Below are positions 6,520-38,320 of a DNA stretch of 64,000 nucleotides, piece after piece. The notes beneath the pieces are model-generated. The model searched no databases. It was not told where the DNA came from and saw nothing but the letters and a program-made list of their open reading frames with translations. Numbering within the stretch: the stretch's first letter is position 1; every line of letters begins with the position of its first letter. The position numbers were made by a program, and so were the translations under genes. This DNA comes from Clostridia bacterium (GTDB lineage: Bacteria > Bacillota > Clostridia > Acetivibrionales > STF1-152), in the NCBI GenBank assembly GCA_028280575.1, contig JANQLN010000050.1:14136-78135 (forward strand), in the 5' to 3' direction.

Positions 6520-6525
6520 TTCTAA

Positions 6526-12933: not shown

Positions 12934-13719
12934 ATGTCTCAAGATAAAATGCATGAATTGAGTATTGATGATAGGAGAGACAAGATAGTAGATATTTTGA
13001 CCAGGCAAAATAAAGTCAGGGTAGCAGAGCTCAGCAGGATGTTTAAAATATCTGAAGCAACAATCAGGCATGACCTTTCCGACCTTGAAAAGCAAGGATT
13101 GCTCGAACGTGTCCACGGAGGTGCAACTAGTACTTATAAAGCTTACTATAACATGTCCTTTTATGAAAGAATGAAAACAAATGAAGATGAAAAAAGAAGT
13201 ATTGCTTTTAAAGCTGCAAAGATGATTTCAGAAGGCGATTCAATAATGATTAATTCAGGAACAACAACTCTTTACGTGGCAAGAGAGCTAAAAAGCATTA
13301 AAAATCTTACCGTTGTTACCAATTCATTGGCTATTTCTCAAGAGCTGGGCAATTATAAGGATATTCATGTTATTTTACTTGGAGGATATTTCAATCCACA
13401 GTATCAATTCACTTATGGTGATGATACGATAAATCAATTAAACAAGTATAAAGCCGATAAGCTGATCCTCGCCGTTGACGGCATTTGCTCTGAGAATGGA
13501 ATAACCACTTACCATTACCTTGAAGCAGAAATAAACAGACAGATGATAAAAAGGGTTGATAATACAGTGGTTGCTGCTGATTATACCAAGGTTGGAAGGA
13601 CAGGGTTTACCCAAATAGACAGTATAGACAGTGCAGATTTTCTCATTACCAACAGTGAAGCCGACGAGCATGAAATTAAAAAGATTATAAAAAAAGGCTT
13701 AGAAGTAGAACTTATATAA
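12934..13719 (+). CDS. DeoR/GlpR-family transcriptional repressor
   Basis: 261 aa. Winged HTH RRDKIVDILTRQNKVRVAELSRMFKISEATIRHDLSDLEKQGLLERVHGGA, followed by a DeoR C-terminal sugar-phosphate sensor domain (INSGTTT, VVTNS). Confidence 0.9.
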   Translation: MSQDKMHELSIDDRRDKIVDILTRQNKVRVAELSRMFKISEATIRHDLSDLEKQGLLERVHGGATSTYKAYYNMSFYERMKTNEDEKRSIAFKAAKMISEGDSIMINSGTTTLYVARELKSIKNLTVVTNSLAISQELGNYKDIHVILLGGYFNPQYQFTYGDDTINQLNKYKADKLILAVDGICSENGITTYHYLEAEINRQMIKRVDNTVVAADYTKVGRTGFTQIDSIDSADFLITNSEADEHEIKKIIKKGLEVELI

Positions 13720-13773
13720 CAGCGCAATTATTGGCATTACTAAAAGTCCGCTCGAAAAACACTAAAGGATAGG

Positions 13774-13798
13774 CTGACTTTGAGTCAGGTTTTCTTTT
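13774..13798 (+). terminator. Rho-independent terminator after the DeoR gene
   Basis: CTGACT-ttg-AGTCAG followed by GTTTTCTTTT. It is nested in a longer AAAAACACTAAA/TTTAGTGTTTTT pairing (13755-13808). Confidence 0.55.
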
Positions 13799-13863
13799 AG
13801 TGTTTTTTACATGCAAAAAAACATTGCAGGTATTCAAATGCAATATAAAAAATAAAAAAACAA

Positions 13864-13892
13864 TTGACTATAAAAATAAAATGATATAAAAT
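13864..13892 (+). promoter_or_regulatory. Strong sigma-A-type promoter of the catabolic operon
   Basis: TTGACT (13864-13869), a 17-nt spacer, then TAAAAT (13887-13892). It lies immediately downstream of the deoR terminator and 75 nt upstream of ATG 13967. Confidence 0.6.
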
Positions 13893-13942
13893 AAAAATAA
13901 AACAAAAACAAAACAAAACAAAAGAAAAACAAAAACAAAAAC
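13893..13942 (+). repeat. A/C-only low-complexity leader, (A4-5C)n
   Basis: aaaaataaaacaaaaacaaaacaaaacaaaagaaaaacaaaaacaaaaac. This is essentially the whole predicted 5'UTR between the -10 box and the RBS AAGGAAGGG. Confidence 0.8.
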
Positions 13943-13966: not shown

Positions 13967-15325
13967 ATGTATGATAGAAATTGGGCAAAAACAGATGCAG
14001 AAAAGCTGCCGGTAATCAAGACTGAATTACCCGGACCAAATTCAATTGAAATACATAGCAGGGCTTCAAAAAATATGAAGGGTTATTCAAGCCAGGTGAA
14101 GCTTTTCCCTGTTGCTTTTGAGTCAGGAAACGGTTGTACGCTTACTGATGTAGACGGTAATGTATTTATAGACTTTTCTTCTGGTATATATGTAACCGGT
14201 CTGGGACATTGCCATCCTAAAATAAGTGAAGAAATTGCAAAATACGCCAGGCAGCTTATGAACTGCCATGATTTTAATACTGAAACAAAAATGAAATTGC
14301 TGGAAAAGCTAGCTTCTATAACCATGGGCGATTTAAATGGTATTCAGCTTTATGATTCGGGAACTACTGCCGTAGAAGCCGGACTACGCTGCGCAAGAGC
14401 CGCTACGGGAAAATTTGAGTTTGTATCTTTCTGGAGGGATTTTCATGGAAAAACCATGGGCGCGGCCAGTTGTGCCATAGTAAACCAGAGCCAGGGAATG
14501 CGGGCTCCCGGATTCTTCCTTGCACCAAGGCCTAACTGCTACAGGTGTCCTTTTAAGATGAAGCACCCTGAGTGTAATTGTTATTGCGCGGATTTCCTTG
14601 AACAGGTTATTATAAATGAAACCAGCGGCCAATTGGCAGCGGTCGTACTTGAACCTATTCAAGGCTGGGGCGGCTCTATAATACCTCCTGATGATTTTAT
14701 GCCGAGGCTTAAGAATTTGTGTGACAAATACAACATGCTGCTGTTTACGGACGAGGTACTGACATGTATGGGCAGGACCGGAAAGATGTTTTGCATGGAA
14801 CACTGGGATATTACTCCTGATATAACTACCCTGGGGAAAGGATTTGGTAATGGATTCCCTGTAACGGCAATGTGTGTAAGCGACAAGTATAAGGAATCTG
14901 TTGAAAATATTTCCGCATCTTCAAGCTATGGTGGAAATCCAATGGCGTGTGCCGCTGCATTGGCATCAATTGAAGTAATTGAGGAAGAGAACTTATGTGA
15001 AAAGTCTGCACATCTGGGAGATGTATTCATAGAGCGAATGAATAAAATGAAGGAAGAGCATGCGATAATTGGAGATGTAAGAGGAAAGGGCTGCTTGCTT
15101 GCCATGGAGCTTGTTAAAGATAGAAATACGAAGGAGCCTTTTGAAGAGGCGGGTAAATTAGTATATCAAAAGGCATTTTCCAAAGGGCTTACATGGGTTC
15201 CGGCAGGACATATACTGAGAATATCACCTCCTATAATAATGGAGGATGATATGGCTTTAAAAGGATTGGATATAATTGAAGAGGCAGTTTCGGAAGTGGA
15301 AAAAGAGCTTGGGTATGCATTATAA
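13967..15325 (+). CDS. Class-III PLP-dependent aminotransferase
   Basis: 452 aa. Motifs SGTTAVEAGLR, DEVLTCMGRTGKMF, TLGKGFGNGFPV (PLP Lys), SSYGGNPMACAAAL. Confidence 0.85.
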   Translation: MYDRNWAKTDAEKLPVIKTELPGPNSIEIHSRASKNMKGYSSQVKLFPVAFESGNGCTLTDVDGNVFIDFSSGIYVTGLGHCHPKISEEIAKYARQLMNCHDFNTETKMKLLEKLASITMGDLNGIQLYDSGTTAVEAGLRCARAATGKFEFVSFWRDFHGKTMGAASCAIVNQSQGMRAPGFFLAPRPNCYRCPFKMKHPECNCYCADFLEQVIINETSGQLAAVVLEPIQGWGGSIIPPDDFMPRLKNLCDKYNMLLFTDEVLTCMGRTGKMFCMEHWDITPDITTLGKGFGNGFPVTAMCVSDKYKESVENISASSSYGGNPMACAAALASIEVIEEENLCEKSAHLGDVFIERMNKMKEEHAIIGDVRGKGCLLAMELVKDRNTKEPFEEAGKLVYQKAFSKGLTWVPAGHILRISPPIIMEDDMALKGLDIIEEAVSEVEKELGYAL

Positions 15326-15456: not shown

Positions 15457-16920
15457 ATGTATTATTTATGTATTGACATTGGAACAACTGCAATTAAATG
15501 TGCAATTGTAGATAGGAATTATCAAATTGCTGCTGAAAAATCATCTGAATACAGGCTTATAAAAAAACCGGACGAAAAAGTGGAACAGGATGCAAATGAG
15601 TGGTGGAATGTTACTGTGAAAACAACAAGGAGCTTATTAGCGGATTCAGGTATTGCCGGTTCTTCTATTGACGCAGTCGGTATAAGCTCCCAGGGAATTT
15701 CATTTGTTCCTGTGGACAGGGAAATGAATCCCCTCATGAATGCAATATCATGGCTGGATACGAAAAGAGCGCAAACCCAAAGTGATTATATTATTGAAAG
15801 CATGGGGAATGATAAAATACAAAGAATAACAGGTTGCGGGGTTTCCTCAGGCAGAAATCTTGCCAAGCTGTTGTGGATAAGACAGGAATTCTATGGTCTC
15901 TTTAGAAGAATATATAAAATACTCACTGCTCATGATTATATTTTATACAGGCTGTGCGGAAAAATTGTGTCTGACCATACAATGGCAGGGAGCACACAGA
16001 TGTACGACATAAACTTAAGGGACTGGTCTGATCATATTCTGGATGCTTTTAACCTTGATAAGGACATGTTTCCGCAAATTATTGGGAGCGGAAGCTTTGC
16101 AGGCAGGATTGAGAAAAGGGCAGCAGATGAACTTGGAATCGGATATAATGCTGTTGTTGCGGCAGGAGGGCAGGACCAGAAATGTGCTGTTCTCGGGTCC
16201 GGAATTGATAAAGATAGTGTGGCGGTCTCTTTAGGGACTGCCTCTGCTATTTCCCGAAGAATTGACAGACCTTCCATTTTAAGCAATATGAGTATCCCAT
16301 GCTGTGTTGATGTTTTGAAAAACAAGTGGGTTATGGAAGGAGCAGTTGGAACTGCCGGCGCAGGCCTGAAGTGGATGAGAGATACCATATACAAGGGTAA
16401 AAGCTACCGTGAGCTTGACGCACTGGCGGAAAGAGCCAAAACCGGAAGCTTATTTTTTTATCCCCACATGTCCGGTGCTTCCACACCTGTAAATAATAAA
16501 AAAGTAAGGGGTTTTTTGTACGGCATTAATATTTCAACAAGTGAGGAAGAAATTATAAGAAGCTTTATGGAAGGTGTAGCTTACCAAATAAAATCCAATA
16601 TTGACATTATCTCCGAAACATTTGGGGAAACCAAGGGCATCCGTATATATGGAGGAGGGGCAAAAAGCCGTTTCTGGTTATCTGTTCTTGCAAATATAAC
16701 CGGAAAAAGGATTGAAGTCATAAAAAGCACCGAAACTGCATGTATTGGGGCCGCAATGCTTTGTTCCATGTGCACGGGTGAGTGGAAAGGAATAGAAAAA
16801 GCGTCGGAGTCGGTCAAAATAAAAAGTGTGATTGAACCTGAACCAAAAGAGCATGAATTTTATCAGGAGCTGTACTTTGAATATATTAGCATTCAGAATA
16901 AAATAATGGAACTTTTTTGA
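15457..16920 (+). CDS. FGGY-family carbohydrate kinase
   Basis: 487 aa. Motifs YLCIDIGTTAIKCAIVD, GISSQGISFVPVD, GGQDQKCA, IRIYGGGAKSRFW. Confidence 0.85.
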   Translation: MYYLCIDIGTTAIKCAIVDRNYQIAAEKSSEYRLIKKPDEKVEQDANEWWNVTVKTTRSLLADSGIAGSSIDAVGISSQGISFVPVDREMNPLMNAISWLDTKRAQTQSDYIIESMGNDKIQRITGCGVSSGRNLAKLLWIRQEFYGLFRRIYKILTAHDYILYRLCGKIVSDHTMAGSTQMYDINLRDWSDHILDAFNLDKDMFPQIIGSGSFAGRIEKRAADELGIGYNAVVAAGGQDQKCAVLGSGIDKDSVAVSLGTASAISRRIDRPSILSNMSIPCCVDVLKNKWVMEGAVGTAGAGLKWMRDTIYKGKSYRELDALAERAKTGSLFFYPHMSGASTPVNNKKVRGFLYGINISTSEEEIIRSFMEGVAYQIKSNIDIISETFGETKGIRIYGGGAKSRFWLSVLANITGKRIEVIKSTETACIGAAMLCSMCTGEWKGIEKASESVKIKSVIEPEPKEHEFYQELYFEYISIQNKIMELF

Positions 16921-16946: not shown

Positions 16947-18257
16947 ATGAAAAGCTTAAGAGCAGGCGTATCAATATGCAGTATAAATCCTGACAAAGGA
17001 GTGGCGTTGGGCGGGTATCCGCATGCCGTAAGAAAAAACACAGGAGTTCACGACAGCATATATGCTGCGGTGTTATATCTTGACAGTGAAAATCCTGTTA
17101 TCATTGCAAGCCTTGACCTTCTTGGATTTTCCAAAGTTTATGCGGACAGGGTAAGGTGCAGAATTGCCGGGATAACCGGTATCAGCCGCAGTAATATAAT
17201 GATTATGTGTACTCACACCCATTCAAGTCCCTATGGTATGACTCTTTTAGATGTAAATGAAGCGAAGGATGCTGTTGATGAAGATTATGTTGAAATGGTA
17301 AGCAATAAACTCACCCAAGCCATATTGGATGCTGTGGAAAATACTTTTGCAGCCAGTATCGGTTTTGGTAAAGGAATATGCGGCAGGGAAAAAGGTGTTG
17401 GCGGAAACAGAAAAAATCCCCATGGAATTTCCGACCCGGAGGTCTGTGTGCTTGGGATAAAGGATGAAAATGGAGAGCTTAGAGCATGCATGGCAAATTA
17501 TGCACTTCACCCCACCTTTCTGCATGCGGAAAATCTCCTTGTTTCGGCTGATTACCCCGGATATATCAGAAAGCATCTTAATAAAGCACAGCCAGAAGCC
17601 GTTTTTTTATTTGCCCAGGGAGCATCGGGAGACCAGAGCTCAAGATACTTCAGGAATGAACAGAGCTTCGATGAGGCAAGAAGAGTTGGATATATGCTGG
17701 GAGAAGAAATATTAAGGGTACTTGGAAGCATCAATTATGAAAAGAGTGCGGATATTAGTATAAAAAATAAAGTTCTTGACAGCTGTTTAAGAGGATTTCC
17801 CTCAATTAAAGAAGCAGAAGAAAACCTTGAAAAAGTTTTAAATAAATACAAAAAAATGAAATTAGGTAATGGCGGTTATGCTGTTCTTAGAAATATGGAG
17901 TGTGATGTTTTTGGTGCAGAACGCACACTGGAATATGTAAAACTGATAATGGAAAATAAAAAGCTCCCCAGAATTCAAGAAGAGCATCCTTTGGAGATCA
18001 GCCTGATTCAAATTAATAACAGCCTTATGGTAATGCTGCAGGGAGAAGTGTTTGTAAGATTCGGGCAGGACATAAAAAAAGGGTCCCCCTTTGAGAACAC
18101 TTTTGTTGTTGAGATGGCGAACGGCGGCTCAGCAGGTTATATATATACAAAGGAAGCACTTGAGGAGTTTGGCGGATATGAAATCCAGTCTTCCCTGTAT
18201 TCCTGGGAAATGGGAGAAAGTATTGTAAGGGAAGTATTGAAGCTTATGAAATTTTAA
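16947..18257 (+). CDS. Neutral/alkaline ceramidase N-terminal-domain-like amidohydrolase
   Basis: 436 aa. Motifs LRAGVSICSINPDKGVALGGYPH...GVHDSIYAAVLYLD...IIASLDLLGF and CTHTHSSP match the pattern of bacterial ceramidase-like hypothetical proteins as I remember it. Confidence 0.55.
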   Translation: MKSLRAGVSICSINPDKGVALGGYPHAVRKNTGVHDSIYAAVLYLDSENPVIIASLDLLGFSKVYADRVRCRIAGITGISRSNIMIMCTHTHSSPYGMTLLDVNEAKDAVDEDYVEMVSNKLTQAILDAVENTFAASIGFGKGICGREKGVGGNRKNPHGISDPEVCVLGIKDENGELRACMANYALHPTFLHAENLLVSADYPGYIRKHLNKAQPEAVFLFAQGASGDQSSRYFRNEQSFDEARRVGYMLGEEILRVLGSINYEKSADISIKNKVLDSCLRGFPSIKEAEENLEKVLNKYKKMKLGNGGYAVLRNMECDVFGAERTLEYVKLIMENKKLPRIQEEHPLEISLIQINNSLMVMLQGEVFVRFGQDIKKGSPFENTFVVEMANGGSAGYIYTKEALEEFGGYEIQSSLYSWEMGESIVREVLKLMKF

Positions 18258-18393
18258 AAGATAAGGGATCATTGCAAATTTTAGAAAAAAGCATAATTTT
18301 TTTAAATGAGACACAAAATGCATATTGATAGGAATGGTGCTTATGGAAAACCGCCTTTTGAGTGATATTGGAAGGACAGGCACAAAGGTTATT

Positions 18394-19563
18394 ATGAATG
18401 GAAGAATAGTAACTGAGAATAATGTTATTGATGACGGTGTAATAATTGTCCGGGGAGACAGAATAAAAGCATTGGGGTGCAGATATGGCATTAATGTTCC
18501 GGCGGGTGCGGAAATCATTGATGCAAAAGGTAATCTTGTATGTCCCGGGTTTATTGACATCCACTGTCACGGCGGCGGCGGATTTTTGTTTAAGGATAAT
18601 GCGGACGCAGCATTGAAGGCACATTTAAGACATGGTACGACTTCGGTACTTGCCACACTTTCTTATCATATGACCGATAATGAGTACATTGAGACATTTC
18701 AAAAGCTTGAAAAGGTTATAAAAACAGACTATGGCAAGCAATGTATTGGAGTCAACATGGAAGGCCCGTATTTGAATCCCAGGTATGGGGCAGATACGAG
18801 TAAGGTTAGAGCCATTAAAGCCGAAGATTATGAGAGGGTGTATGAAGCAGGCAGGAAATTAATAAGAATATGGACTTTTGCACCTGAGCTTGACGGAGCA
18901 AAGGATTTTGCGGCTTTTTTGAAAAGTAAAAACATAATTCAGAGCGCAGGCCATTCCGAAGCGGATCATGAAACTGTGAATGAATTTATAAAAAACGGGC
19001 TTAGACTTGGCTGCCATCTGATGAATGCCATGGGATTTCCTCCGCCTTTTGTTTTCAAGGGAGCAATAAGGGAGGTAGGTATAGCAGAGGCACTGCTATG
19101 GGATGACGATACTTACGTGGAAGTAATTCCCGACTCAAAGGGTGTCCATGTGAGACCGCTTATGTTAAAGCTTATCCTGAAGCTTAAGGGGGTTAACAGG
19201 GTTGTTGCAATTTCAGATGCTTTTCTGGCTGGGGCACTTAAAGATCTGGAATATATAAAGGATGAAAAGGGACTTGAATATGTGCCCGATGAAGGTGATT
19301 TATACTATAACGGGTTAAATCAGCTATGTGGTTCCAGGCTGTCTATGGATTATGCAATAAGGAATATGATGAACCATACGGGTATAGGCTTTGTAGATGC
19401 GTTTAAAATAGGAGCTCTTAATGCTGCGGCGCTTCTTGGAATGGATGATGAGATAGGGAGCATTAGAGAAGGCAAGAAAGCAAATATAATAATTGCAGAT
19501 GAAAAAATGAATGTAAAGAATGTAATTCTGGAAGGCAGAAGGGTGCAATTATCAGGACTATAA
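18394..19563 (+). CDS. N-acetylhexosamine-6-phosphate deacetylase (NagA-family amidohydrolase)
   Basis: Motifs PGFIDIHCHGGGG, NMEGPYLN, AGHSEA. Starting at ATG 18394 (AAAGG upstream) gives the NagA-typical distance of about 57 aa from Met to DIH. The track start 18325 remains possible. Confidence 0.8.
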   Translation: MNGRIVTENNVIDDGVIIVRGDRIKALGCRYGINVPAGAEIIDAKGNLVCPGFIDIHCHGGGGFLFKDNADAALKAHLRHGTTSVLATLSYHMTDNEYIETFQKLEKVIKTDYGKQCIGVNMEGPYLNPRYGADTSKVRAIKAEDYERVYEAGRKLIRIWTFAPELDGAKDFAAFLKSKNIIQSAGHSEADHETVNEFIKNGLRLGCHLMNAMGFPPPFVFKGAIREVGIAEALLWDDDTYVEVIPDSKGVHVRPLMLKLILKLKGVNRVVAISDAFLAGALKDLEYIKDEKGLEYVPDEGDLYYNGLNQLCGSRLSMDYAIRNMMNHTGIGFVDAFKIGALNAAALLGMDDEIGSIREGKKANIIIADEKMNVKNVILEGRRVQLSGL

Positions 19564-20549: not shown

Positions 20550-20572
20550 TGTAAAAATGAGGAGTTGTGAAT

Positions 20573-22353: not shown

Positions 22354-22546
22354 AATCGTATTAACCTGTAATAATTTTTAGAAAAATGTCAAGTAATACT
22401 ATAAAAATATCATTTAAAAACATGTGCGGATTATCTATAATTATAATTAAGTTATATGTTACAGATCACTAGTACTCTTAATAGCGCAAGAAAATATGCT
22501 GCAAGACACCTGTAAATTCAGGGTTACCAGGGTAGGAGGAAATTAC

Positions 22547-23476: not shown

Positions 23477-23499
23477 AAGGACGAAAGGACGGTGATGAA

Positions 23500-29056: not shown

Positions 29057-29190
29057 AGTCCTCTTAGGAGGCTCCTGGATCGTTGTAAACTTTAATCAAA
29101 CAATTTTTTTAACTGTATGGAAAATTCAGAAATTTTGTAAAACTGCAGATGATTAATATGCTTTTAATTTATGGTATGGGAGAAGACAAT

Positions 29191-31667: not shown

Positions 31668-33170
31668 ATGATTCCAATTAAAGTACTATTTATTGATGAT
31701 GAAGTAATAATAAAGAGAATAATCATGGAGAAGGTTAATTGGGATAAATACAATATGGAGATTACTAAAATTGCGAATAATGCATGTGAAGCACTTGAAT
31801 ATCTGGATAAATTTCATGTTGATTTGATTATTACCGATATTAAAATGCCATTGATAGACGGAAATGAATTTATTAAAAAGGCCTTATCTTTGAAGAAGAA
31901 TTTTAAATTCTTAGTGCTTAGTGCGTATACTGATTTTGACATTGTCAGAAAATCATTTAAGCTGGGCGTATATGACTATATGCAAAAGTCTGATATAAAT
32001 ACACCGGTAATGGATAATATATTGGTTAAATTAAGAAATGAGATAACAAATGAGAATACTAAAAATGCAGATGGCATGGATGAAGCTTTAAGCGAGGGAT
32101 TTACAGATGGCTTTGCGGACACCTCGCAAATATCGGTTTCTAAAAGATATACTGTTCTGCTTATTAAATATTTAGACTTCCACAGTAAAACCGGCAAGCA
32201 GGTAATAAAACTGGTTAAAGAGGCGAATGAAGTTCAAAAACTGTTTTTTACAGATATTTTTAAGGATAGGTTCACTGTTATAATAGAGCACATATCAAAA
32301 TCATATAAAAATATCAATCATGAAAGAGAACGCATAACTGAAATAATAAAGAAATCAATTAACCGGGAAAAATTAATTAGTTATTATATAGGAGTAAGCA
32401 CGACAGGGTTTGGTTCTGAAATTGACACCTTGAAATTTGAAGCGGAAGAGGTTATCGAAAGTCAGTATTACCATATTCAAAGTAAAAAGGTATTCTATTA
32501 TGAACCCAAAGCAAACAAGCAGGAACTCTTAGAGGACGATTGGAAGCTGAGGCTTAAAAGAGAAGTTGAAATGCTCAATATAGATAAGGCATCCGATATA
32601 CTCAAAGAACTGATGACACGTATTCATGTTATAAAACCGGATAAAACAAGATGCCAGGATTTTATTTATAATATATACGTATTTTATGTAAATTATTTAT
32701 ATAATAACAATATTATTGCAAAAGTAATAGAATTGGATTATAACAGGATTCATAATATTATTAAACAATTCGATAAGTTCGACAAGCTGGAAGAATGGAT
32801 AACAAATAATCTTGAGATTATACATGAAGGCTATATGCTTAAGTACAGAAGCAATTTGGCAGAGATTTTGAAGGTTTATATTAAATTTAATTTAAATGAA
32901 GACCTATCGGTTAATAAAATTGCGGAAAAGTATAATGTCAATAGTTCTTATATAAGCTATTTGTTCAAAAAGCAAGAAGGGACATCTTTAAAAAAATATA
33001 TTAATGAAGTCAAAATTAATAAAGCAAAGCATTATCTTGTTAATACGAATATAAAGGTTAAGGAAATCTGCAATTTACTTGGATACAATAATCCGGAACA
33101 CTTTTCTCGTGTATTTAAAGAGAGATTCGGGGAATCACCCAATTTTTACCGGGGTAAAAGTACTATCTAA
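31668..33170 (+). CDS. Response regulator with AraC-type HTH output (YesN-like)
   Basis: 500 aa. Receiver domain KVLFIDDE...DLIITDIKMPLIDG. C-terminal AraC HTH (SVNKIAEKYNVNSSYISYLFKK...GYNNPEHFSRVFKERFGESP). Confidence 0.9.
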   Translation: MIPIKVLFIDDEVIIKRIIMEKVNWDKYNMEITKIANNACEALEYLDKFHVDLIITDIKMPLIDGNEFIKKALSLKKNFKFLVLSAYTDFDIVRKSFKLGVYDYMQKSDINTPVMDNILVKLRNEITNENTKNADGMDEALSEGFTDGFADTSQISVSKRYTVLLIKYLDFHSKTGKQVIKLVKEANEVQKLFFTDIFKDRFTVIIEHISKSYKNINHERERITEIIKKSINREKLISYYIGVSTTGFGSEIDTLKFEAEEVIESQYYHIQSKKVFYYEPKANKQELLEDDWKLRLKREVEMLNIDKASDILKELMTRIHVIKPDKTRCQDFIYNIYVFYVNYLYNNNIIAKVIELDYNRIHNIIKQFDKFDKLEEWITNNLEIIHEGYMLKYRSNLAEILKVYIKFNLNEDLSVNKIAEKYNVNSSYISYLFKKQEGTSLKKYINEVKINKAKHYLVNTNIKVKEICNLLGYNNPEHFSRVFKERFGESPNFYRGKSTI

Positions 33171-33217: not shown

Positions 33218-35017
33218 ATGAAAAGGGAAGGGAAAATATATATTAAAAATTTTTTGAATTCAATAACAATACCTTTTGTTATTCTTACCCTATTGATACT
33301 GGTATCGGTAGTATATATCAGTTATCAAAATAGTGATAATTTTATTGAACAGCAGCTTACAGAAGAATATATAAATATAATTGACGGAAAAAGGGATATG
33401 TTTACCAATATGGCAAATAGGATTATATCCCTTATTAATAATGCTTTGGATAATGAATCTACTCTTGATCTGATAAGCGGAAAATTGACAGGATATGACA
33501 GGCAAAAAAGTATGGAGGATGTCAGGAATTTATTATTATATGACAAAGGATTTGTAGATGAATATGATTTCTTTTATTATGGACTGAATGGCATATATTT
33601 TTATAAGCCGGATATTATTTTTAAAGATATATCTTCATTTAAAGAGACAAAATGGTTTAAAGAGGCCTCAGGCAGTGAAACACCATTAAACTGGTTTGGT
33701 TTAAGCAAAAGTGAAATTGTTGACGGCGGTTATGAATTTATTGTATCTCTTAAAGTGGATATATATGATAATTTCAGAGGAAATTTGCAGGGAATAGCAT
33801 TTTTTTCAATTGATGACAGTGTGCTCGACAGTATTATGAAAAGTGGAAAAGGAAAGGTTTATATTATAAATAACAGGGGTGAAATCATTTATGATATTGA
33901 AAAAAAATTGCAAAATAGTAATGCTTCTGTTCTGGGGTTAGATTATGAGCTGGATATACCGGCTAAATCAAAGTACCGTGTAAAAAAAATAGATAAAAGG
34001 TATACGCAGGATAAAAGTAAAAATTTAATTGCAATAATAAGTGCCCAGGATAAATTTGGTTTATCCATAATTCATATAAGAGAGCATTCATCAATTATTG
34101 AAAAATTTAAATCACTGCAATTCATGTTTTATGCTGTTCTTTCTATAGTGATAGCATTTATAGCATATTATATATTTGTGTATGTTTGGATTATTAATAA
34201 ACCAATAAAAAATTTGTACGGAAAAATTCTAAGCTTGAATAATAGTCAAAGTTCAAATATATTAATTAAAAAAGAAAATATCATAACAACAGGGATTAAA
34301 AAAATTGATATAGAGTTTAATAGAATTATTTCTGAAAATAAAAAGAATTTAAAAAGAATCAATGAATATGAAAGAACAAAGCAGTTAATGGAAATAAAAA
34401 AATTACAGGCTGAAATTGACCCCCACTTTTTATACAATGTGCTTGGACATATTAAATTTGTTGCAATGCTCAACGATCCCGTTCAAATTATTAAGATAAT
34501 TGACTCATTGTTTATTATTCTAAAAAGCAAAAAGGCACAGGTGAAACATATTATACCTGTCGGGGAAGAGATTAATGTATTAAAAAAATATATTGATTTA
34601 ATTCAGTTAATATATGGAGACAACATTGAATTTGAGTTTGATATTGATTCAATTGTGTACGGATATGATATGCCGGCATTTATACTCCAGCCAATTGTGG
34701 AAAACTGCATAAATCACGGAATTAATCCAAGTGTCAAGGGAGGAAAAATCAGCATATTGGGAAGGATTGCTAATTCCTGCGTTATTTTTGAAATAGTTGA
34801 TAATGGAATTGGAATACAGGAAAAAGCAATAACAAAAATAGTTCAATACCAGAGGGATTTGAACGGTAAAAATGAACACATGGGTATTATGAATATTGAT
34901 AAGAAGATTAAATTAAGCTGCGGAAAAGACTATGGAATCAGTATATCGTCAGAAGACGGTAAGGGTACAAGGGTTACAGTCACCTTGAGCTTGAACCCTT
35001 CAAGCAATGTCATGTGA
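33218..35017 (+). CDS. Sensor histidine kinase (YesM-like, His_kinase + HATPase_c)
   Basis: 599 aa. Two TM segments flank an extracellular sensor domain. It also has the H-box EIDPHFLYNVL and N/G boxes (ENCINHG, DNGIGI). Confidence 0.9.
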   Translation: MKREGKIYIKNFLNSITIPFVILTLLILVSVVYISYQNSDNFIEQQLTEEYINIIDGKRDMFTNMANRIISLINNALDNESTLDLISGKLTGYDRQKSMEDVRNLLLYDKGFVDEYDFFYYGLNGIYFYKPDIIFKDISSFKETKWFKEASGSETPLNWFGLSKSEIVDGGYEFIVSLKVDIYDNFRGNLQGIAFFSIDDSVLDSIMKSGKGKVYIINNRGEIIYDIEKKLQNSNASVLGLDYELDIPAKSKYRVKKIDKRYTQDKSKNLIAIISAQDKFGLSIIHIREHSSIIEKFKSLQFMFYAVLSIVIAFIAYYIFVYVWIINKPIKNLYGKILSLNNSQSSNILIKKENIITTGIKKIDIEFNRIISENKKNLKRINEYERTKQLMEIKKLQAEIDPHFLYNVLGHIKFVAMLNDPVQIIKIIDSLFIILKSKKAQVKHIIPVGEEINVLKKYIDLIQLIYGDNIEFEFDIDSIVYGYDMPAFILQPIVENCINHGINPSVKGGKISILGRIANSCVIFEIVDNGIGIQEKAITKIVQYQRDLNGKNEHMGIMNIDKKIKLSCGKDYGISISSEDGKGTRVTVTLSLNPSSNVM

Positions 35018-35094
35018 TGGGGCAAAATATTTTTTGAAAGCTGATTCAGATTGTAAATTATGAATGCCCTGCTGAAAAAGATGGAGGAGATAGT

Positions 35095-36468
35095 TTGAAC
35101 ACGTTTGTGTTTTATGATGATTTTATGCTGTGGAAATATGAAGGGATAAGGAGGAGAGTATTCAGGCCGGTACATATACCGGAAGCAACATTTTGGAAAC
35201 CATCCATAACAGGCGGAACAGTTTTGTGGTGCCCGGAAGTTAACAAATACAGGATGTGGTACAGCAAAATTCCGGATATAACAAAAGACTGGGGAAGATT
35301 TTCTGAGTTTGCGGAATCGGAAGACGGACTTGACTGGCATGCTCCTGGTTGCGGTGAAGAAAAGTCGAGGCTTGCCCCGGCAGTTGAAGTTATGAGGGAT
35401 GAGCATGCAAATAACCACCGGGAAAGGTATAAATGCGTGTACATAGATTATAAGGGTGAATATAATTCAAAAGGCTACATTGCTGTAAGCCCCGACGGCA
35501 TACACTGGACCGGGGACAAAAGGTATAAATTCTGTGAGCACGCAAGTGATACAAAAAACAACCTTTTTTATAACCCGGTAACGGATGAGTACCAGGTTAT
35601 TTTAAGAGCGAATCATGGAGACAGGCGTATTTGCTGTGTGCGTTCAAAAGATTTGATTAACTGGACCGGACCTGAATTATTGATGTCCCCTGATCCATTT
35701 GATGAGGCAGTCACAGAGTATTACGGCCTGGTGGTTTTTCCTATGGAAGGGTATTTTCTTGGATATTTATGGGTGTATTATACGGACATGAATGACATTT
35801 CAACCTATAAAATGGCAGGAAAGGTAGATACTTTCCTGGTTTACAGCTATGATGGGCTTCACTGGAACAGGGTGTCAAAAGCCCCTCTTGTGGAAAGGGC
35901 AACTCCTCCTGAATATGGCAGCACTAATATATATATGCATTCCATTGTTCAAACTACGGATAAGGGAGGATGGATTCTTGGTGCAGGGGGAAACAGGATA
36001 GACCATGCCTGCGGCTTTACACCCGTTTATCCGGATTCAAGGATTCCCAAGCTGGCATCCGGTGGGAAAAGGTATGTAAACCTGTTCTACAAAATACGCC
36101 GTGAAGGATTTGTAGGTATGGAATCATTCGGTTATACGGCAAGCATGGTTTTCAAGGCTGTTGATATTGTTGGTGATGATTTGTTTTTCAACATTTGCGC
36201 ACCCTGCGGGTGGGTAAAATTTCAGATTATTGAAAAAATAGGCAAAACAATAAAGGGTTTTACGTTTGAGGATTCAATACCATTTACAGGAGATGAAACC
36301 AGGTACAAACCTGTATGGAAAGAGCATGATTTAAATGAGCTTAAGGGAAGAAGGGTTATGATTGAGCTGAAAATGTATATGGCAATTGTTTTTTCTATGT
36401 CGGGCCACATAAGGCCCCATTTTGGATTAAAGCCTCAGAAATCGCTGGGTGAAGTGGCCGTAATTTAA
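35095..36468 (+). CDS. Beta-propeller protein, paralogous in type to 27491-29056; family unassigned
   Basis: 457 aa. TTG start with GGAGGAG. Motifs RMWYSK, AESEDGLDWHAPG, IAVSPDGIHWTGDK, VRSKDLINWTGPE, LVYSYDGLHWNRVS. No signal peptide. Confidence 0.5.
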   Translation: MNTFVFYDDFMLWKYEGIRRRVFRPVHIPEATFWKPSITGGTVLWCPEVNKYRMWYSKIPDITKDWGRFSEFAESEDGLDWHAPGCGEEKSRLAPAVEVMRDEHANNHRERYKCVYIDYKGEYNSKGYIAVSPDGIHWTGDKRYKFCEHASDTKNNLFYNPVTDEYQVILRANHGDRRICCVRSKDLINWTGPELLMSPDPFDEAVTEYYGLVVFPMEGYFLGYLWVYYTDMNDISTYKMAGKVDTFLVYSYDGLHWNRVSKAPLVERATPPEYGSTNIYMHSIVQTTDKGGWILGAGGNRIDHACGFTPVYPDSRIPKLASGGKRYVNLFYKIRREGFVGMESFGYTASMVFKAVDIVGDDLFFNICAPCGWVKFQIIEKIGKTIKGFTFEDSIPFTGDETRYKPVWKEHDLNELKGRRVMIELKMYMAIVFSMSGHIRPHFGLKPQKSLGEVAVI

Positions 36469-36492
36469 GTGAAACTAAAAGGGGAGATTGGA

Positions 36493-37311
36493 ATGATAGA
36501 AGGTATAAGGATGAAACCGAGCCGGGTTCTTGAAAAACTGCGTTCCGGAGGTGTGGCAAGCTGTGTTAAGCTGAATCTTGCCGATTCAAGGGTTTTTGAG
36601 ATAGCTGCAATGAAAGGCTTTGACTGCCTGTGGACAGATATGGAGCATTGTGCAAGCGACTGGTCTGTTATTGAAAAACAGGTACTGGCGGCAAAAGCAT
36701 ACGGAAGCGATATCATGGTACGTGTCGCAAGAGGCAGCTACAGTGACTATACAAGGCCTTTGGAGCTTGATGCTTCAGGTATAATGGTGCCGCATGTAAT
36801 GGGATTTGAGGATGCAAAAAGAGTTGTTGATATGACCAGGTTTTACCCTTTGGGCAGGCGGCCGCTTGACGGAGGGAATGCCGACGGGGCGTACTGCAAT
36901 ATTGACCTTTTGGAGTATATAAGGGATGCAAACAGTCAAAGGTTTGTCATTGTACAGATCGAAGACCCGGAGCCAATGGATGAAATCGATGATATCGCAT
37001 CACTTGAAGGCATTGATATGCTGTTTTTCGGACCGGGAGATTTCAGCCAGGGAATAGGTGCTCCGGTCCAGTGGGATAATCCGGAGCTCAAAGATGCCCG
37101 GAAAAGAGTTGCAAGGGCAGCTGTCAAAGCGGGAAAGTATGCGGGTACTGTGGGTGGAACGGGCAATCTTGAAGAGCTTTTGGATATGGGCTACCGCTTT
37201 ATAAGCATGGGTGCAGATGTAGTAGGGCTGGCTCAATATTTTTCCGGTATTGTGTCGGAATTTAAAGGAAAAGAGACGACAGGGCACAAAAACAGGCTTT
37301 TATATGAATAG
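36493..37311 (+). CDS. HpcH/HpaI-family aldolase (2-keto-3-deoxy-sugar-acid aldolase type)
   Basis: Motifs FDCLWTDMEHC, VRV, GIMVPHV, VQIEDPE, FGPGDFS. I place the start at ATG 36493 (GGGGAG 6 nt upstream). Confidence 0.8.
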   Translation: MIEGIRMKPSRVLEKLRSGGVASCVKLNLADSRVFEIAAMKGFDCLWTDMEHCASDWSVIEKQVLAAKAYGSDIMVRVARGSYSDYTRPLELDASGIMVPHVMGFEDAKRVVDMTRFYPLGRRPLDGGNADGAYCNIDLLEYIRDANSQRFVIVQIEDPEPMDEIDDIASLEGIDMLFFGPGDFSQGIGAPVQWDNPELKDARKRVARAAVKAGKYAGTVGGTGNLEELLDMGYRFISMGADVVGLAQYFSGIVSEFKGKETTGHKNRLLYE

Positions 37312-37372
37312 AGCAGAAAAATGATACGGCAGCATAAATTTTATAAAGCAGAATTTAAGAGGTGTGTATGTT

Positions 37373-38320
37373 ATGAAGTACGCTGATATAGACGGATGCA
37401 AGATATCAAAAATGACACTGGGTACCGTTCAGCTGGGAATGAATTACGGGATAGCGAACAAGACAGGAAAACCCTCTCGGGAAAAAGCTTTTGAAATCCT
37501 GAATACGGCTGCTGGAGGAGGCGTGAATTCATTTGACACCGCAAATGCGTATGGTGACTCAGAGGATGTACTGGGCAGATATTTCTGCTCGCCGCAATGC
37601 AAAGTCAGGAGGCCCTTCTTCACAACGAAGTTCAAGCTGGGTTTACCGGCAGAAGCCGATAGATATACTGTGGAAAGAGAAATCCGCAGTTTTGCGGAAA
37701 AATCGCTGGAGAGGCTGAAGATTAATAAAATACAGGTCTATATGCTCCATAACGCAATAGCTATGTCCCGGTACGGCGATACCGTGCCTGAAACTTTAAA
37801 AAAATTGAAGAATGAAGGATTGGTTGAAAAGGCCGGGGTATCCGTTTACAATCCGGAAGAAGTGGATAAAATGCTTGAAAATGAACTTTACGAGGCTGTG
37901 CAGATTCCCATGAATGTGTTTGATCTGAAGATGGTACGAAGCGGGGCACTGAATAAGCTCAAAAACGCGGGATATATTGTATTTGTCAGAAGTGTGTTTT
38001 TACAGGGACTGTTTTTCATGGAACCCGGGCAAATGCCTGAAAGCCTGGCATCAACATCCGAATATTTGAAACAGCTTCATAAGCTTGCGCAAGAGGAAGG
38101 TCTTAGCATTGCACAGCTTGCCCTTTCCTTCATAAGAGACCTTGAAGGAGTAACCTGTCTTGTGCTTGGAGCTGAAACGCCGGAGCAGGTGGAGGAAAAT
38201 ATAAGGCTTATGGAAGGCCCTGGATTGAAAAGGAGTACGGTTGAAAGGATTGAGAGCCTGTCGGAGAAGACTCCTGTCGAAACAATCATGAAGGAGCTTC
38301 ATTCAAGGTGGCGGCGCTAA
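37373..38320 (+). CDS. Aldo/keto reductase
   Basis: Motifs LGTVQLGMNYG, FDTANAYGDSE, TKF, YMLH. I place the start at ATG 37373 (AAGAGG about 10 nt upstream). Confidence 0.85.
   Translation: MKYADIDGCKISKMTLGTVQLGMNYGIANKTGKPSREKAFEILNTAAGGGVNSFDTANAYGDSEDVLGRYFCSPQCKVRRPFFTTKFKLGLPAEADRYTVEREIRSFAEKSLERLKINKIQVYMLHNAIAMSRYGDTVPETLKKLKNEGLVEKAGVSVYNPEEVDKMLENELYEAVQIPMNVFDLKMVRSGALNKLKNAGYIVFVRSVFLQGLFFMEPGQMPESLASTSEYLKQLHKLAQEEGLSIAQLALSFIRDLEGVTCLVLGAETPEQVEENIRLMEGPGLKRSTVERIESLSEKTPVETIMKELHSRWRR

What the first reader, a model, noticed from the sequence alone, without database searches (positions are those of the whole stretch)
12934..38320. 25-kb catabolic island under DeoR and YesMN control that merges amino-sugar processing with a non-phosphorylative sugar-acid route
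All 20 genes are on one strand. They comprise:
- a DeoR repressor with its own terminator, followed by a near-consensus promoter;
- an aminotransferase, an FGGY kinase and two different amidohydrolases (ceramidase-like and NagA-like);
- a NagB-like enzyme, an atypical Gfo/Idh/MocA protein and an SDR;
- an LplABC-type oligosaccharide importer and a URO-D-like orphan;
- two unassignable intracellular beta-propellers;
- a 2-hydroxyacid dehydrogenase and an enolase-superfamily dehydratase;
- an AraC-type two-component system, an HpcH aldolase and an AKR.

I know each enzyme family, but I do not know a described pathway with this combination. The gene content suggests import of an oligosaccharide, cleavage by the propellers, de-N-acylation and deamination of an amino (possibly 6-deoxy or diamino) sugar, then oxidation, dehydration and aldol cleavage to pyruvate plus an aldehyde. 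The substrate cannot be read from the sequence.
Basis: partly seen in the sequence, partly recalled or inferred. Interest (0 to 1): 0.72.

Follow-up and report, generated by a model that had tools for sequence, protein, structure and literature searches.

The report
Composite amino-sugar glycan catabolic locus
A 25-kb run of 20 same-strand genes is real and consists of two uncharacterised sugar-breakdown cassettes, each also found in many other anaerobic bacteria, joined in this genome; the sugar they degrade is still unknown.

Summary
The block lies between a glycan-biosynthesis cluster and argS.

It is not a single invention, and it is not a chance pile-up. Fifteen genes form a system that recurs in other genomes: DeoR, FGGY kinase, ceramidase-like amidase, NagA-like, NagB-like, atypical Gfo, SDR, two permeases, SBP, RR, HK, the 457-aa propeller, HpcH aldolase and AKR. 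HpcH and AKR lie 16 kb from the NagB-like gene here but next to it elsewhere. The SBP orthologues (54-56% identity) sit in Christensenellaceae-type loci with the same transporter, two-component system, propeller, Gfo, SDR, HpcH and AKR.

Four genes (URO-D-like, 521-aa propeller, 2-hydroxyacid dehydrogenase, enolase-type dehydratase) form a second cassette that is conserved on its own in metagenomes. Here it sits between the SBP and RR genes. The aminotransferase has no conserved partner.

The two propellers are homologous to each other and belong to a large family with no Pfam model, distantly related to GH130.

The most likely function is import of an oligosaccharide, cytoplasmic cleavage, N-deacylation, NagB-type deamination, and cleavage to pyruvate plus an aldehyde. 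The substrate is unresolved. No paper with this gene set was found.

The parts
12934..13719 (+). DeoR/AgaR-like repressor gene
   Evidence: Pfam HTH_DeoR + DeoRC; NCBIfam AgaR 205.8 bits, below the cutoff of 260. Homologues at 40-51% identity lie beside NagB-like modules in 7-8 other loci.
13755..13807 (+). Hairpin terminator after the DeoR gene
   Evidence: Inverted repeat with 25-nt arms, 84% complementary, followed by a T-run.
13864..13892 (+). Promoter-like site TTGACT-17-TAAAAT, followed by an A-rich (CAAAA)n leader at 13893-13942
   Evidence: Consensus scan 10/12; sequence read directly. Function not tested.
13967..15325 (+). Class-III (omega) aminotransferase-family PLP enzyme; specific to this genome
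   Evidence: Aminotran_3 2.5e-96. Nearest solved structures are GABA aminotransferase and racemase types. No conserved neighbour relationship in 170 comparison loci.
15457..16920 (+). FGGY sugar kinase (XylB-like, below cutoff)
   Evidence: FGGY_N + FGGY_C; TIGR01312 336.8 bits against a cutoff of 380. An FGGY gene lies next to NagB-like in 31-33 of 80 loci at 27-42% identity.
16947..18257 (+). Cytoplasmic ceramidase-N-terminal-like Zn amidase (putative N-deacylase)
   Evidence: Ceramidase_alk 5.4e-11. The THTHS motif and the later His align to neutral ceramidase 2zws. No signal peptide. Neighbour of NagB-like in 23-24 of 80 loci, 62% identity in L090.
18325..19563 (+). NagA-like amidohydrolase (N-acetyl-sugar(-phosphate) deacetylase type)
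   Evidence: TIGR00221 221.9 bits against a cutoff of 225.65. Neighbour of NagB-like in 31-35 of 80 loci at 25-40% identity.
19611..20549 (+). NagB-like protein, the anchor of the conserved system
   Evidence: 3603 homologues at 55-87% identity across Clostridia, Spirochaetes and the PVC group. AF2 pLDDT 85; Foldseek matches NagB at E 4e-15, ahead of 6-phosphogluconolactonase at 1e-8. Equivalents of NagB Asp72, His143 and Glu148 are kept; Arg172 and Asp141 are not.
20567..21553 (+). Atypical Gfo/Idh/MocA oxidoreductase
   Evidence: Partial PF01408 hit 2.8e-10. No solved relative by sequence. Orthologues at 51-71% identity in L014, L054-59, L076, L080, L085, L090, L092-94 and L126.
21571..22353 (+). 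SDR (gluconate-5-dehydrogenase/KduD-like)
   Evidence: adh_short_C2; PRK08213 5.9e-59, below cutoff. Orthologues at 42-77% identity in the same loci.
22496..24414 (+). Two ABC permease genes (LplB/LplC type)
   Evidence: BPD_transp_1. 70-73% identical to the permeases in L092-L094.
24486..26165 (+). Lipoprotein solute-binding protein (LplA type)
   Evidence: SBP_bac_1; lipobox LSAC. Only 16 homologues at E<=1e-30. The 54-56% orthologues lie in syntenic loci L092-L094.
26269..27426 (+). URO-D-like protein (cassette 2)
   Evidence: Weak URO-D / MtaA-CmuA hits. Homologues at 33-41% identity lie adjacent to P521 relatives in 7-8 metagenome loci.
27491..29056 (+). 521-aa five-bladed propeller + beta-sandwich, GH130-related, no Pfam model (cassette 2)
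   Evidence: More than 1173 homologues at 58-68% identity, all annotated 'hypothetical'. AF2 plus Foldseek. No Pfam hit for 30 family members.
29149..30204 (+). D-2-hydroxyacid dehydrogenase family (cassette 2)
   Evidence: 2-Hacid_dh_C 1.1e-49. Relatives at 48-56% identity lie beside P521 relatives in 9-10 loci.
30228..31439 (+). Enolase-superfamily acid-sugar dehydratase or cycloisomerase (cassette 2)
   Evidence: MR_MLE_N/C. Best NCBIfam matches are arabinonate and galactonate dehydratases, below cutoffs. Nearest solved structures are unassigned MR/MLE proteins. Relatives at 53-79% identity lie beside P521 relatives in 13-14 loci.
31668..33170 (+). YesN-type response regulator (REC + AraC HTH)
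   Evidence: Pfam. 46-47% orthologues in L092-L094.
33218..35017 (+). YesM-type sensor histidine kinase
   Evidence: His_kinase PF06580 + HATPase_c. 52-54% orthologues in L092-L094.
35095..36468 (+). 457-aa propeller, distant homologue of the 521-aa protein; travels with the SBP
   Evidence: hhalign against the P521 family: probability 99.9. 45% orthologues lie directly after the SBP gene in L092-L094. 2356 representatives at E<=1e-3. Profile hit to GH130 structure 7fip at E 1.2e-7.
36469..37311 (+). HpcH/HpaI class II pyruvate aldolase
   Evidence: PF03328; HpaI, GarL and YfaU matches all below cutoffs. Orthologues at 54-73% identity lie next to NagB-like/Gfo/SDR in 10-13 loci.
37364..38320 (+). 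Aldo-keto reductase
   Evidence: PF00248. Orthologues at 41-63% identity lie beside HpcH in the same loci.

Best explanation
The locus is a catabolic system for an imported oligosaccharide that contains an N-acylated amino sugar. It is built from two independently conserved, uncharacterised cassettes.

Cassette 1 holds 15 genes: DeoR, FGGY, ceramidase-like amidase, NagA-like, NagB-like, Gfo, SDR, the ABC importer, the YesMN-type sensor pair, the 457-aa propeller, HpcH and AKR. The inferred steps are:
1. The lipoprotein SBP and the two permeases take up an oligosaccharide.
2. The cytoplasmic GH130-related propeller cleaves it, by hydrolysis or phosphorolysis.
3. The Zn amidase and the NagA-like enzyme remove N-acyl groups.
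4. The NagB-like enzyme converts the amino sugar to a keto sugar and ammonia.
5. The FGGY kinase, Gfo, SDR and AKR phosphorylate and adjust the redox state of intermediates.
6. The HpcH aldolase releases pyruvate and an aldehyde, and the AKR reduces the aldehyde.

Cassette 2 holds the URO-D-like protein, the 521-aa propeller, the 2-hydroxyacid dehydrogenase and the enolase-type dehydratase. It has been inserted between the SBP and RR genes. It probably adds a second glycosidic cleavage and a sugar-acid dehydration branch that supplies the same aldolase.

The class-III aminotransferase is an extra specific to this genome, possibly acting on a second amino group.

Shown here: gene content, protein folds, the gene associations, and retention of catalytic residues in the NagB-like and ceramidase-like proteins. 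Inferred: every reaction, the order of steps, and the substrate.
For: Gene content and families.

Association in cassette 1:
- Among 45 species-representative genome loci of at least 12 kb anchored on the NagB-like gene, 30 carry an amidase (NagA-like, ceramidase-like or creatininase-family), 25 an FGGY kinase, 18 an aldolase (HpcH, DHDPS or FSA type), and 17 carry four or more module genes.
- L090 has BNR_2 - NagB-like (85%) - amidase (62%) - AKR - Gfo (71%) - SDR (77%) - HpcH (67%) - URO-D, next to an LplABC/YesMN set.
- The rare SBP has its 54-56% orthologues in L092-L094. These loci carry the permeases (70-73%), the 457-aa propeller orthologue (45%) plus a paralogue, RR (46%), HK (54%), Gfo (52%), SDR (59%), HpcH (73%) and AKR (55%). 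In L092/L079 these are followed by BNR_2, NagA-like, FGGY, creatininase-family and NagB-like genes.

Association in cassette 2: the enolase, 2-hydroxyacid dehydrogenase and URO-D-like families are the three most frequent neighbours of P521 relatives in 80 metagenome loci.

Enzymology hints:
- The NagB-like model matches NagB better than lactonases and keeps the equivalents of Asp72, His143 and Glu148.
- The amidase keeps the ceramidase THTHS/His motif.
- The propellers are GH130/32/43/117-like.
- The SBP is an exported lipoprotein and the enzymes are cytoplasmic.

Operon layout: all genes are co-directional, gaps are 0-247 bp, and the only convincing terminator lies after the DeoR gene.
Against: - No expression or biochemical data exist.
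- Cassette 2 is conserved without cassette 1. The two meet only in this window, with weak exceptions (L126, L144), so they may serve different substrates.
- The FGGY and NagA-like proteins are only 25-42% identical to those in other loci and may not be orthologous.
- About a third of NagB-like genes sit alone or in housekeeping contexts (L005-L009, L007). The family may therefore have a more general role.
- The L092-type loci contain the aldolase but no dehydratase, so the origin of the aldolase's 2-keto-3-deoxy substrate is unexplained there.
- Two regulatory systems and promoter-like sites before FGGY, Perm1 and RR allow independent transcription.
- The phosphate-binding Arg172 of NagB is not conserved, so whether the intermediates are phosphorylated is unclear.
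Confidence: 0.55

Rival explanations
1. The locus is a juxtaposition of independent operons for different substrates: an amino-sugar operon under DeoR, an oligosaccharide importer with a sugar-acid cassette, and a TCS/aldolase unit. They share a strand but not a pathway.
For: Cassette 2 is conserved on its own and is absent from all 86 NagB-like/SBP-anchored loci. Promoter-like sites lie in the 131-, 142- and 228-bp gaps. There are two different regulators. The RR/HK genes have a lower GC content.
Against: HpcH and AKR (right end), Gfo and SDR (left block), and the SBP, permeases, TCS and 457-aa propeller (middle and right) are syntenic together in L090 and L092-L094. At least 15 genes therefore form one recurring unit. 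Cassette 2 is inserted inside that unit, with no terminator on either side.
Confidence: 0.22
2. Cassette 1 is a Nan-like pathway for a sialic-acid-like or other acidic amino sugar from microbial envelopes. Candidates are di-N-acyl nonulosonic acids such as pseudaminic or legionaminic acid, or an N-acetylhexosaminuronic acid. The aldolase would split off pyruvate. Two amidases would remove two N-acyl groups. The NagB-like enzyme, and here the aminotransferase, would remove the amino groups.
For: Relatives of the module carry counterparts of the whole E. coli Nan repertoire in non-canonical families: BNR_2 sialidase-fold proteins (L085, L090, L079/L092-94), DUF386/YhcH (8 loci), GDSL esterases (6), typical Gfo/Idh/MocA, DHDPS/NanA-type aldolases (L089 plus 5 loci), NagA-like and NagB-like. 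Two or three different amidases often co-occur. The held literature describes no catabolic route for these sugars.
Against: The window itself has no BNR_2, DUF386, NanE or NanA-type gene. Family-level parallels are not substrate evidence. The GH130-like propellers point instead to beta-mannoside-type linkages. Nothing here distinguishes a nonulosonic acid from a uronic acid or a neutral HexNAc.
Confidence: 0.15
3. It is an ordinary GlcNAc/GalNAc (Nag/Aga-type) utilisation locus with divergent enzymes, next to a generic hexonate or hexuronate route.
For: The DeoR protein's best match is AgaR. The NagA-like protein scores almost at the nagA cutoff. The NagB fold is confirmed. The SDR resembles KduD and gluconate 5-dehydrogenase.
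Against: NagB-like scores 34 bits against a cutoff of 237 and forms its own tightly conserved family. There is no ROK/NagK kinase, PTS, AgaS, tagatose-bisphosphate aldolase, KdgK or Eda. A cytoplasmic ceramidase-like amidase and an HpcH aldolase are not part of the Nag/Aga pathways.
Confidence: 0.06

Closest known systems
Sialic-acid catabolism (Nan regulon: NanH/NanA/NanK/NanE + NagA/NagB, with NanQ/YhcH, NanS, NanY/YjhC) - from my own knowledge of E. coli and gut anaerobes
   Same: The logic matches: release of an acidic amino sugar, a pyruvate-forming aldolase, a kinase, then NagA-type deacetylation and NagB-type deamination. Related loci add BNR_2, DUF386, GDSL and Gfo proteins.
   Different: Almost every step uses a different protein family: HpcH instead of NanA (a few relatives do use a DHDPS type), FGGY instead of a ROK kinase, no NanE, an extra ceramidase-like amidase, and extra SDR, Gfo and AKR redox steps. 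The window has no sialidase-fold gene.
GalNAc/GlcNAc pathways (AgaR-AgaA-AgaI/AgaS; NagA-NagB)
   Same: A DeoR-family repressor, an amidohydrolase-superfamily deacetylase and a NagB-fold enzyme with conserved catalytic Asp/His.
   Different: All scores are below the family cutoffs. Arg172 of the phosphate site is lost. There is no PTS, ROK kinase or tagatose branch. The genes are linked to a pyruvate aldolase.
Non-phosphorylative 6-deoxyhexose/hexonate routes (L-rhamnose LRA1-4 with YfaU-type aldolase; L-fucose route of anaerobes) - from my own knowledge
   Same: A dehydrogenase, an enolase-superfamily dehydratase, an HpcH-type aldolase giving pyruvate plus an aldehyde, and an aldehyde reductase are all encoded in the window.
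   Different: The dehydratase and the aldolase belong to different conserved cassettes and do not co-occur elsewhere. No lactonase was identified. The dehydratase matches no characterised subgroup above cutoff.
YesMN / LplABC-type oligosaccharide uptake units of Bacillota (aldouronate and rhamnogalacturonan loci of Paenibacillus and Bacillus) - from my own knowledge
   Same: A PF06580 histidine kinase, a REC-AraC regulator, a large lipoprotein family-1 SBP and two permeases, with no dedicated ATPase.
   Different: The SBP is a rare lineage (16 homologues at E<=1e-30). The associated enzymes are not GH67, GH105 or PL11 but unclassified propellers.
GH130 beta-mannoside phosphorylases/hydrolases (e.g. 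7fip, 9fj8, 5ayd)
   Same: A five-bladed propeller. The profile-to-sequence hit is E 1.2e-7 and Foldseek gives E 1.5e-11.
   Different: There is no Pfam GH130 hit. The proteins are 150-200 residues longer and carry a C-terminal beta-sandwich like GH32 and GH43. Catalytic and phosphate-binding residues were not mapped.
Oxidative chitin (GlcNAc1A) pathway OngB/OngC (PMC9537276)
   Same: Deacetylation and then deamination of an oxidised N-acetyl amino sugar to a 2-keto-3-deoxy acid, which is then cleaved by an aldolase.
   Different: That pathway uses KdgK and Eda plus a dedicated deaminase in aerobic marine Proteobacteria. None of those families is present here.

Membership tests
NagA (GlcNAc-6-P deacetylase, TIGR00221) | Score at or above the curated equivalog cutoff | tested here: not met
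   221.9 bits against a cutoff of 225.65. Borderline: same superfamily and probably the same chemistry.
NagB (GlcN-6-P deaminase, TIGR00502) | Score at or above the curated cutoff | tested here: not met
   34.4 bits against a cutoff of 236.9; no Pfam hit.
NagB (GlcN-6-P deaminase, TIGR00502) | NagB fold and catalytic Asp72/His143/Glu148 | tested here: met
   Foldseek matches NagB at E 4e-15 with TM 0.62-0.73. The profile alignment shows TMDEW aligned to NMDEY and GHIAFIDP aligned to GHIAFNEP.
NagB (GlcN-6-P deaminase, TIGR00502) | Phosphate-binding Arg172 and active-site Asp141 | tested here: not met
   The aligned positions are Leu219 (followed by invariant His220) and Ala (using my numbering of E. 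coli NagB). The alignment in this region is of low confidence.
Neutral ceramidase | Full N-terminal catalytic domain plus C-terminal domain; secreted | tested here: not met
   Only residues 18-233 align (profile positions 16-256 of 509). NCBIfam gives 20.8 bits against a cutoff of 1200. There is no signal peptide.
Neutral ceramidase | Zn/catalytic His motif (THTHSGP) and the second His | tested here: met
   CTHTHSSP aligns with ATHTHSGP, and ALHPT aligns with PVHST of 2zws.
Non-phosphorylative sugar-acid pathway | Dehydrogenase, lactonase, dehydratase and aldolase encoded together and co-conserved | tested here: not met
   Candidates for all steps except the lactonase are present in the window. 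The enolase dehydratase and the HpcH aldolase never co-occur in 170 comparison loci.
YesMN/LplABC-type unit | PF06580 kinase + REC-AraC regulator + family-1 lipoprotein SBP + two BPD_transp_1 permeases | tested here: met
   syntenic in L090 and L092-L094.
GH130 | Match to PF04041 / sequence-level family membership | tested here: not met
   No hit for 30 P521-family members. One of 11 P457-family members hits at E 0.013. The relationship is distant only.
GH130 | Catalytic Asp and phosphate-binding residues; phosphorolytic activity | not testable with these tools
   A residue-level structural superposition was not available. Enzyme assays with and without phosphate are needed.
Nan (sialic acid) cluster | NanA (DHDPS-family lyase), NanK (ROK), NanE | tested here: not met
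   None of these families occurs in the window. DHDPS-type aldolases occur only in some related loci.

The most novel reading that the evidence does not exclude
Cassette 1 is the missing catabolic route for an abundant acidic N-acyl amino sugar from microbial cell envelopes. Candidates are pseudaminic/legionaminic-type nonulosonic acids, ManNAcA, or the N-acetyltalosaminuronic acid of methanogen pseudomurein. The system occurs widely in anaerobes from guts, digesters and sediments. It would use a new NagB-like deaminase subfamily and a cytoplasmic ceramidase-like N-deacylase. The 457/521-aa propellers would found a new GH130-related glycosidase or phosphorylase family.
Probability: 0.2. Interest if true: 0.8.

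Novelty: new variant of a known kind. Interest (0 to 1): 0.58.

Why it matters
If the inference holds, three results follow.

1. The NagB-like, amidase, kinase and aldolase genes would define a widespread carbohydrate pathway with no assigned substrate. It occurs in Clostridia, termite-gut Treponema, Christensenellaceae, Lentisphaerae, Kiritimatiellae and other anaerobes. The NagB-like family alone has about 3,600 homologues.

2. The propeller superfamily has more than 2,300 cluster representatives and no Pfam model. It is a candidate new glycoside hydrolase or phosphorylase family.

3. The window gives a natural experiment in pathway assembly, with one conserved cassette inserted inside another.

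Identifying the substrate would improve annotation of many gut and biogas-reactor genomes. It could also show how microbial cell-wall amino sugars are recycled in anoxic habitats.

Tried and rejected
- Metagenome scan with the SBP as a single protein: 26 pattern matches, none confirmed.
- Exact look-up of P0121, the identical NagB-like protein: not on record. It is a low-GC Clostridia-like genome, seen otherwise only in Logan run SRR20820735.
- First neighbourhoods of 521-aa homologues (L002-L004) looked unrelated to the window. The larger scan later revealed cassette 2, so the early impression of 'no conserved context' was dropped.
- Single-sequence PDB searches for the two propellers and for Gfo found nothing.
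- Four literature searches found no paper with this gene combination. One search was rejected for syntax.
- Cluster 9 in the neighbourhood clustering was an antisense ORF artefact overlapping the NagB-like gene and was discarded.
- Lactonase role for the NagB-like protein: considered less likely, because the model and residues match NagB better than 6-phosphogluconolactonase.
- Biosynthetic reading of the cluster (aminotransferase + Gfo + kinase): rejected, because of the importer, the sensor pair, the aldolase and the absence of glycosyltransferases inside the block.
- Search for a shared operator in the intergenic regions: it gave only a post hoc 14-nt motif. This is reported as an aside, not as evidence.

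Full report
**Observation.** The window carries 20 consecutive + strand ORFs from 12934 to 38320.
- DeoR/AgaR-like repressor
- class-III aminotransferase
- FGGY kinase
- a 436-aa protein matching only the N-terminal half of neutral ceramidase
- a NagA-like amidohydrolase just under the nagA cutoff (221.9 against 225.65 bits)
- a 312-aa weak NagB relative
- an atypical Gfo/Idh/MocA protein
- an SDR
- two permeases and a family-1 SBP
- a weak URO-D-like protein
- a 2-hydroxyacid dehydrogenase
- an enolase-superfamily protein
- a REC-AraC regulator and a PF06580 kinase
- an HpcH aldolase and an AKR
- two proteins (521 and 457 aa) with no Pfam hit

The block is bounded upstream by glycan-biosynthesis genes and a DUF6062 gene, and downstream by argS. 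A hairpin with 25-nt arms and a T-run follows the DeoR gene. A TTGACT-17-TAAAAT site precedes the aminotransferase gene. Further promoter-like sites sit before FGGY, Perm1 and RR. No other convincing terminator was found. The SBP has a lipobox, and the amidase and both unknown proteins lack signal peptides.

**The two unknown proteins.** The 521-aa protein has more than 1,173 homologues at 58-68% identity in Planctomycetes, Verrucomicrobia, Clostridia and Paenibacillaceae. All are annotated as hypothetical.
- An AlphaFold2 model (pLDDT 88.9) is a five-bladed propeller with a C-terminal beta-sandwich. Its best Foldseek matches are GH130 beta-1,2-mannoside phosphorylases, followed by GH32, GH43, GH117 and EndoMA1.
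- The 457-aa protein is a distant homologue. BLASTP gives E 4e-6. Profile-profile comparison gives probability 99.9 and E 5e-34 over 407 columns.
- Its family has 2,356 representatives of 50% clusters at E<=1e-3.
- Neither family hits a Pfam model, apart from faint GH32N and GH130 similarity.
- The 457-aa family profile reaches GH130 structure 7fip at E 1.2e-7.

They can now be placed as an unclassified GH130-related superfamily.

**Is the cluster one unit?** I anchored a scan of species-representative genomes on the NagB-like protein. This protein belongs to a very conserved family, with 3,603 homologues at 55-87% identity across phyla. The scan returned 80 loci. tblastn and ORF clustering show these recurrent neighbours:
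- FGGY kinase: 31-33 loci
- NagA-like: 31-35
- ceramidase-like amidase: 23-24
- SDRs: 19-21
- HpcH aldolase: 10-12
- AKR: 12
- the atypical Gfo: 9-10
- a DeoR homologue: 7-8

Among the 45 loci of at least 12 kb, 30 have an amidase, 25 a kinase, 18 an aldolase, and 17 have four or more module genes. Typical strings are SDR-SDR-FGGY-amidase-NagB-like-NagA-like-HpcH in termite-gut Treponema (L062, L064) and Gfo-SDR-SDR-HpcH-NagA-like-creatininase-NagB-like-AKR (L080). HpcH and AKR lie 16 kb from the NagB-like gene in the window. Elsewhere they are its direct neighbours, which ties the two ends of the locus together.

**The importer, the sensor pair and the 457-aa propeller also belong to this unit.** The SBP is rare, with 16 homologues at E<=1e-30. 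Its 54-56% orthologues lie in three syntenic loci (L092-L094).
- One arm of these loci reads Perm1 (72%) - Perm2 (70%) - SBP - 457-aa orthologue (45%) - a 544-aa paralogue - RR (46%) - HK (54%) - BNR_2.
- The divergent arm reads Gfo (52%) - HpcH (73%) - SDR (59%) - AKR (55%) - a 442-aa FucI_C-like protein.
- In the Christensenellaceae chromosome (L092/L079), NagA-like, FGGY, a creatininase-family amidase and NagB-like follow directly.
- L090, whose NagB-like protein is 85% identical, has an LplABC/YesMN set beside BNR_2 - NagB-like - amidase (62%) - AKR - EamA - Gfo (71%) - SDR (77%) - HpcH (67%) - URO-D.

Fifteen of the 20 genes thus form a recurring system, which I call cassette 1.

**A second cassette.** Four genes never appeared in those loci: URO-D-like, the 521-aa propeller, the 2-hydroxyacid dehydrogenase and the enolase protein. 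A metagenome scan anchored on the 521-aa family (80 loci) showed that these same three families are its most frequent neighbours:
- enolase superfamily: 13-14 loci, up to 79% identity
- 2-hydroxyacid dehydrogenase: 9-10 loci
- URO-D-like: 7-8 loci

Examples are L108 (P521-UROD-Enol-HADH), L125, and L141/L150. Alpha/beta-hydrolase esterases and BNR_2 proteins also recur, and some homologues are fused to an esterase. Window positions 26269-31439 are therefore an independently conserved cassette 2. It is inserted between the SBP and RR genes, which are separated only by the propeller genes in L092-type loci. Links between the two cassettes outside this window are few: L126 has Gfo at 60% identity and an SDR beside P521, and L144 has an SDR at 60% and an AKR. 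The aminotransferase has no conserved partner anywhere.

**Enzymology that can be read from sequence.**
- The NagB-like model (pLDDT 85) matches NagB structures at E 4e-15 to 1e-11. 6-Phosphogluconolactonases match only at about 1e-8.
- The profile alignment keeps the equivalents of NagB Asp72, His143 and Glu148 (as Asp). It does not keep Asp141 or the phosphate-binding Arg172 (E. coli numbering is from my own knowledge). An aldose-ketose deaminase/isomerase is therefore plausible, but the substrate may not be a 6-phosphate.
- The amidase retains the ceramidase THTHS motif and the later His.
- The enolase protein matches no characterised subgroup above cutoff.
- Gfo has no solved relative by sequence.

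**Mechanism.** The best-supported reading is an oligosaccharide catabolic system.
1. An ABC importer takes up the oligosaccharide under YesMN-type sensing.
2. GH130-related propellers cleave it in the cytoplasm.
3. The ceramidase-like and NagA-like amidases remove N-acyl groups.
4. The NagB-like enzyme deaminates and isomerises the amino sugar.
5. FGGY phosphorylates an intermediate, and Gfo, SDR and AKR carry out redox steps.
6. HpcH cleaves the product to pyruvate plus an aldehyde.

Cassette 2 would add a second glycosidase and a sugar-acid dehydration branch. All reactions are inferred.

Related loci carry variable accessories: BNR_2 sialidase-fold proteins, DUF386/YhcH, GDSL esterases, DHDPS-type aldolases, creatininase-family amidases, and in one gut lineage an FSA-type aldolase with SIS, Iso_dh and TIM-like genes. 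Step by step, this set parallels the sialic-acid Nan/Nag scheme using different protein families. That parallel motivates the more novel reading that the substrate is an acidic N-acyl amino sugar of microbial envelopes. The window itself lacks those accessory genes, and the GH130 relationship points equally to beta-mannoside-type linkages. The substrate therefore remains open.

**Known or new.** No Nag, Aga, Nan, non-phosphorylative 6-deoxyhexose, or GlcNAc1A (PMC9537276) pathway matches the gene set. Their defining families are absent or score below cutoff (see the membership table). Four full-text searches found no paper with this combination. I rate the locus as a new variant of a known kind, namely a regulated oligosaccharide-utilisation locus. 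It contains three poorly understood protein families.

**Limits.**
- There are no expression data.
- The source organism is unidentified.
- Many comparison contigs are short, so neighbour frequencies are lower bounds.
- FGGY and NagA-like identities to other loci are low (25-42%).
- About a third of NagB-like genes sit without the module.

Noticed in passing
window 46046-46130 (+): A ZMP/ZTP riboswitch (RF01750, 55.9 bits, above the gathering score) lies upstream of a 506-aa SHMT-like ORF at 46214-47734.
   Followed up: no
window 47870-56526 (+): A second unassigned sugar-type cluster. It has a creatininase-family protein (48588-49298, about 30% identical to the creatininase genes that sit beside NagB-like genes in other genomes), Gfo/Idh/MocA (49400), an 887-aa DHO_dh + Fer4_20 + Pyr_redox_2 fusion (50515), a 2-hydroxyacid dehydrogenase (53246), an SDR (54165) and a second FGGY kinase (54979).
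   Followed up: partly
window 13893-13942: An unusual A-rich (CAAAA)n leader lies between the promoter-like site and the aminotransferase start codon.
   Followed up: no
window 12614-12627, 12656-12669, 31494-31507: The 14-nt motif GA[GA]CATACTAAAT[GT] occurs three times in 64 kb, against 0.27 expected. Two copies form an inverted pair in the DUF6062/DeoR divergent region, and one lies upstream of the response-regulator gene. The pattern was derived post hoc, so the statistic is biased. It is a possible shared operator.
   Followed up: partly
window 12790-12850: Near-perfect repeated and inverted copies of AGAACGGTTCTTGCTT lie just upstream of the DeoR promoter-like site. A 50-nt-arm inverted repeat lies at 12583-12700.
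   Followed up: no
window 32001-36000: The RR and HK genes have a markedly lower GC content (0.30-0.36) than the enzyme genes around them (0.40-0.45).
   Followed up: no
window 1-11530: The adjacent glycan-biosynthesis cluster includes UDP-GlcNAc 2-epimerase (4022) with a UDP-sugar dehydrogenase (5218), a ManNAcA-type pair. It also has a Polysacc_synt_2 4,6-dehydratase-type gene (8776), glycosyltransferases, an FkbM methyltransferase and an APS kinase fusion. The cell may therefore make acidic or 6-deoxy amino sugars next to a locus that may degrade such sugars.
   Followed up: no
window 40438-42480: An AraC-family regulator (minus strand) is divergent from a second, clearer URO-D-family gene (41416-42480) just beyond argS.
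   Followed up: no
L005/L006/L009 (Caldicoprobacterales) and L007/L008 (Lentisphaerales): The NagB-like gene (83% and 60% identical) sits in housekeeping surroundings. In one case it is paired only with an FGGY kinase between hpf and secA. In the other it lies next to a typical Gfo/Idh/MocA gene and rseP/ispG. This hints at a constitutive or recycling role for the family.
   Followed up: partly
P0008, P0073; L002 11553-12326; L143, L114: 521-aa-family proteins are sometimes fused to, or sit adjacent to, Peptidase_S9/alpha-beta-hydrolase esterases. This suggests an esterified (O-acylated) substrate.
   Followed up: no
L026, L030, L033, L036, L038 (gut Clostridia MAGs): A variant of the module replaces HpcH/AKR/Gfo with an FSA/transaldolase-type aldolase, an Iso_dh-family dehydrogenase, a 199-aa SIS protein, a TIM-like protein, UPF0047 and a GDSL esterase.
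   Followed up: partly
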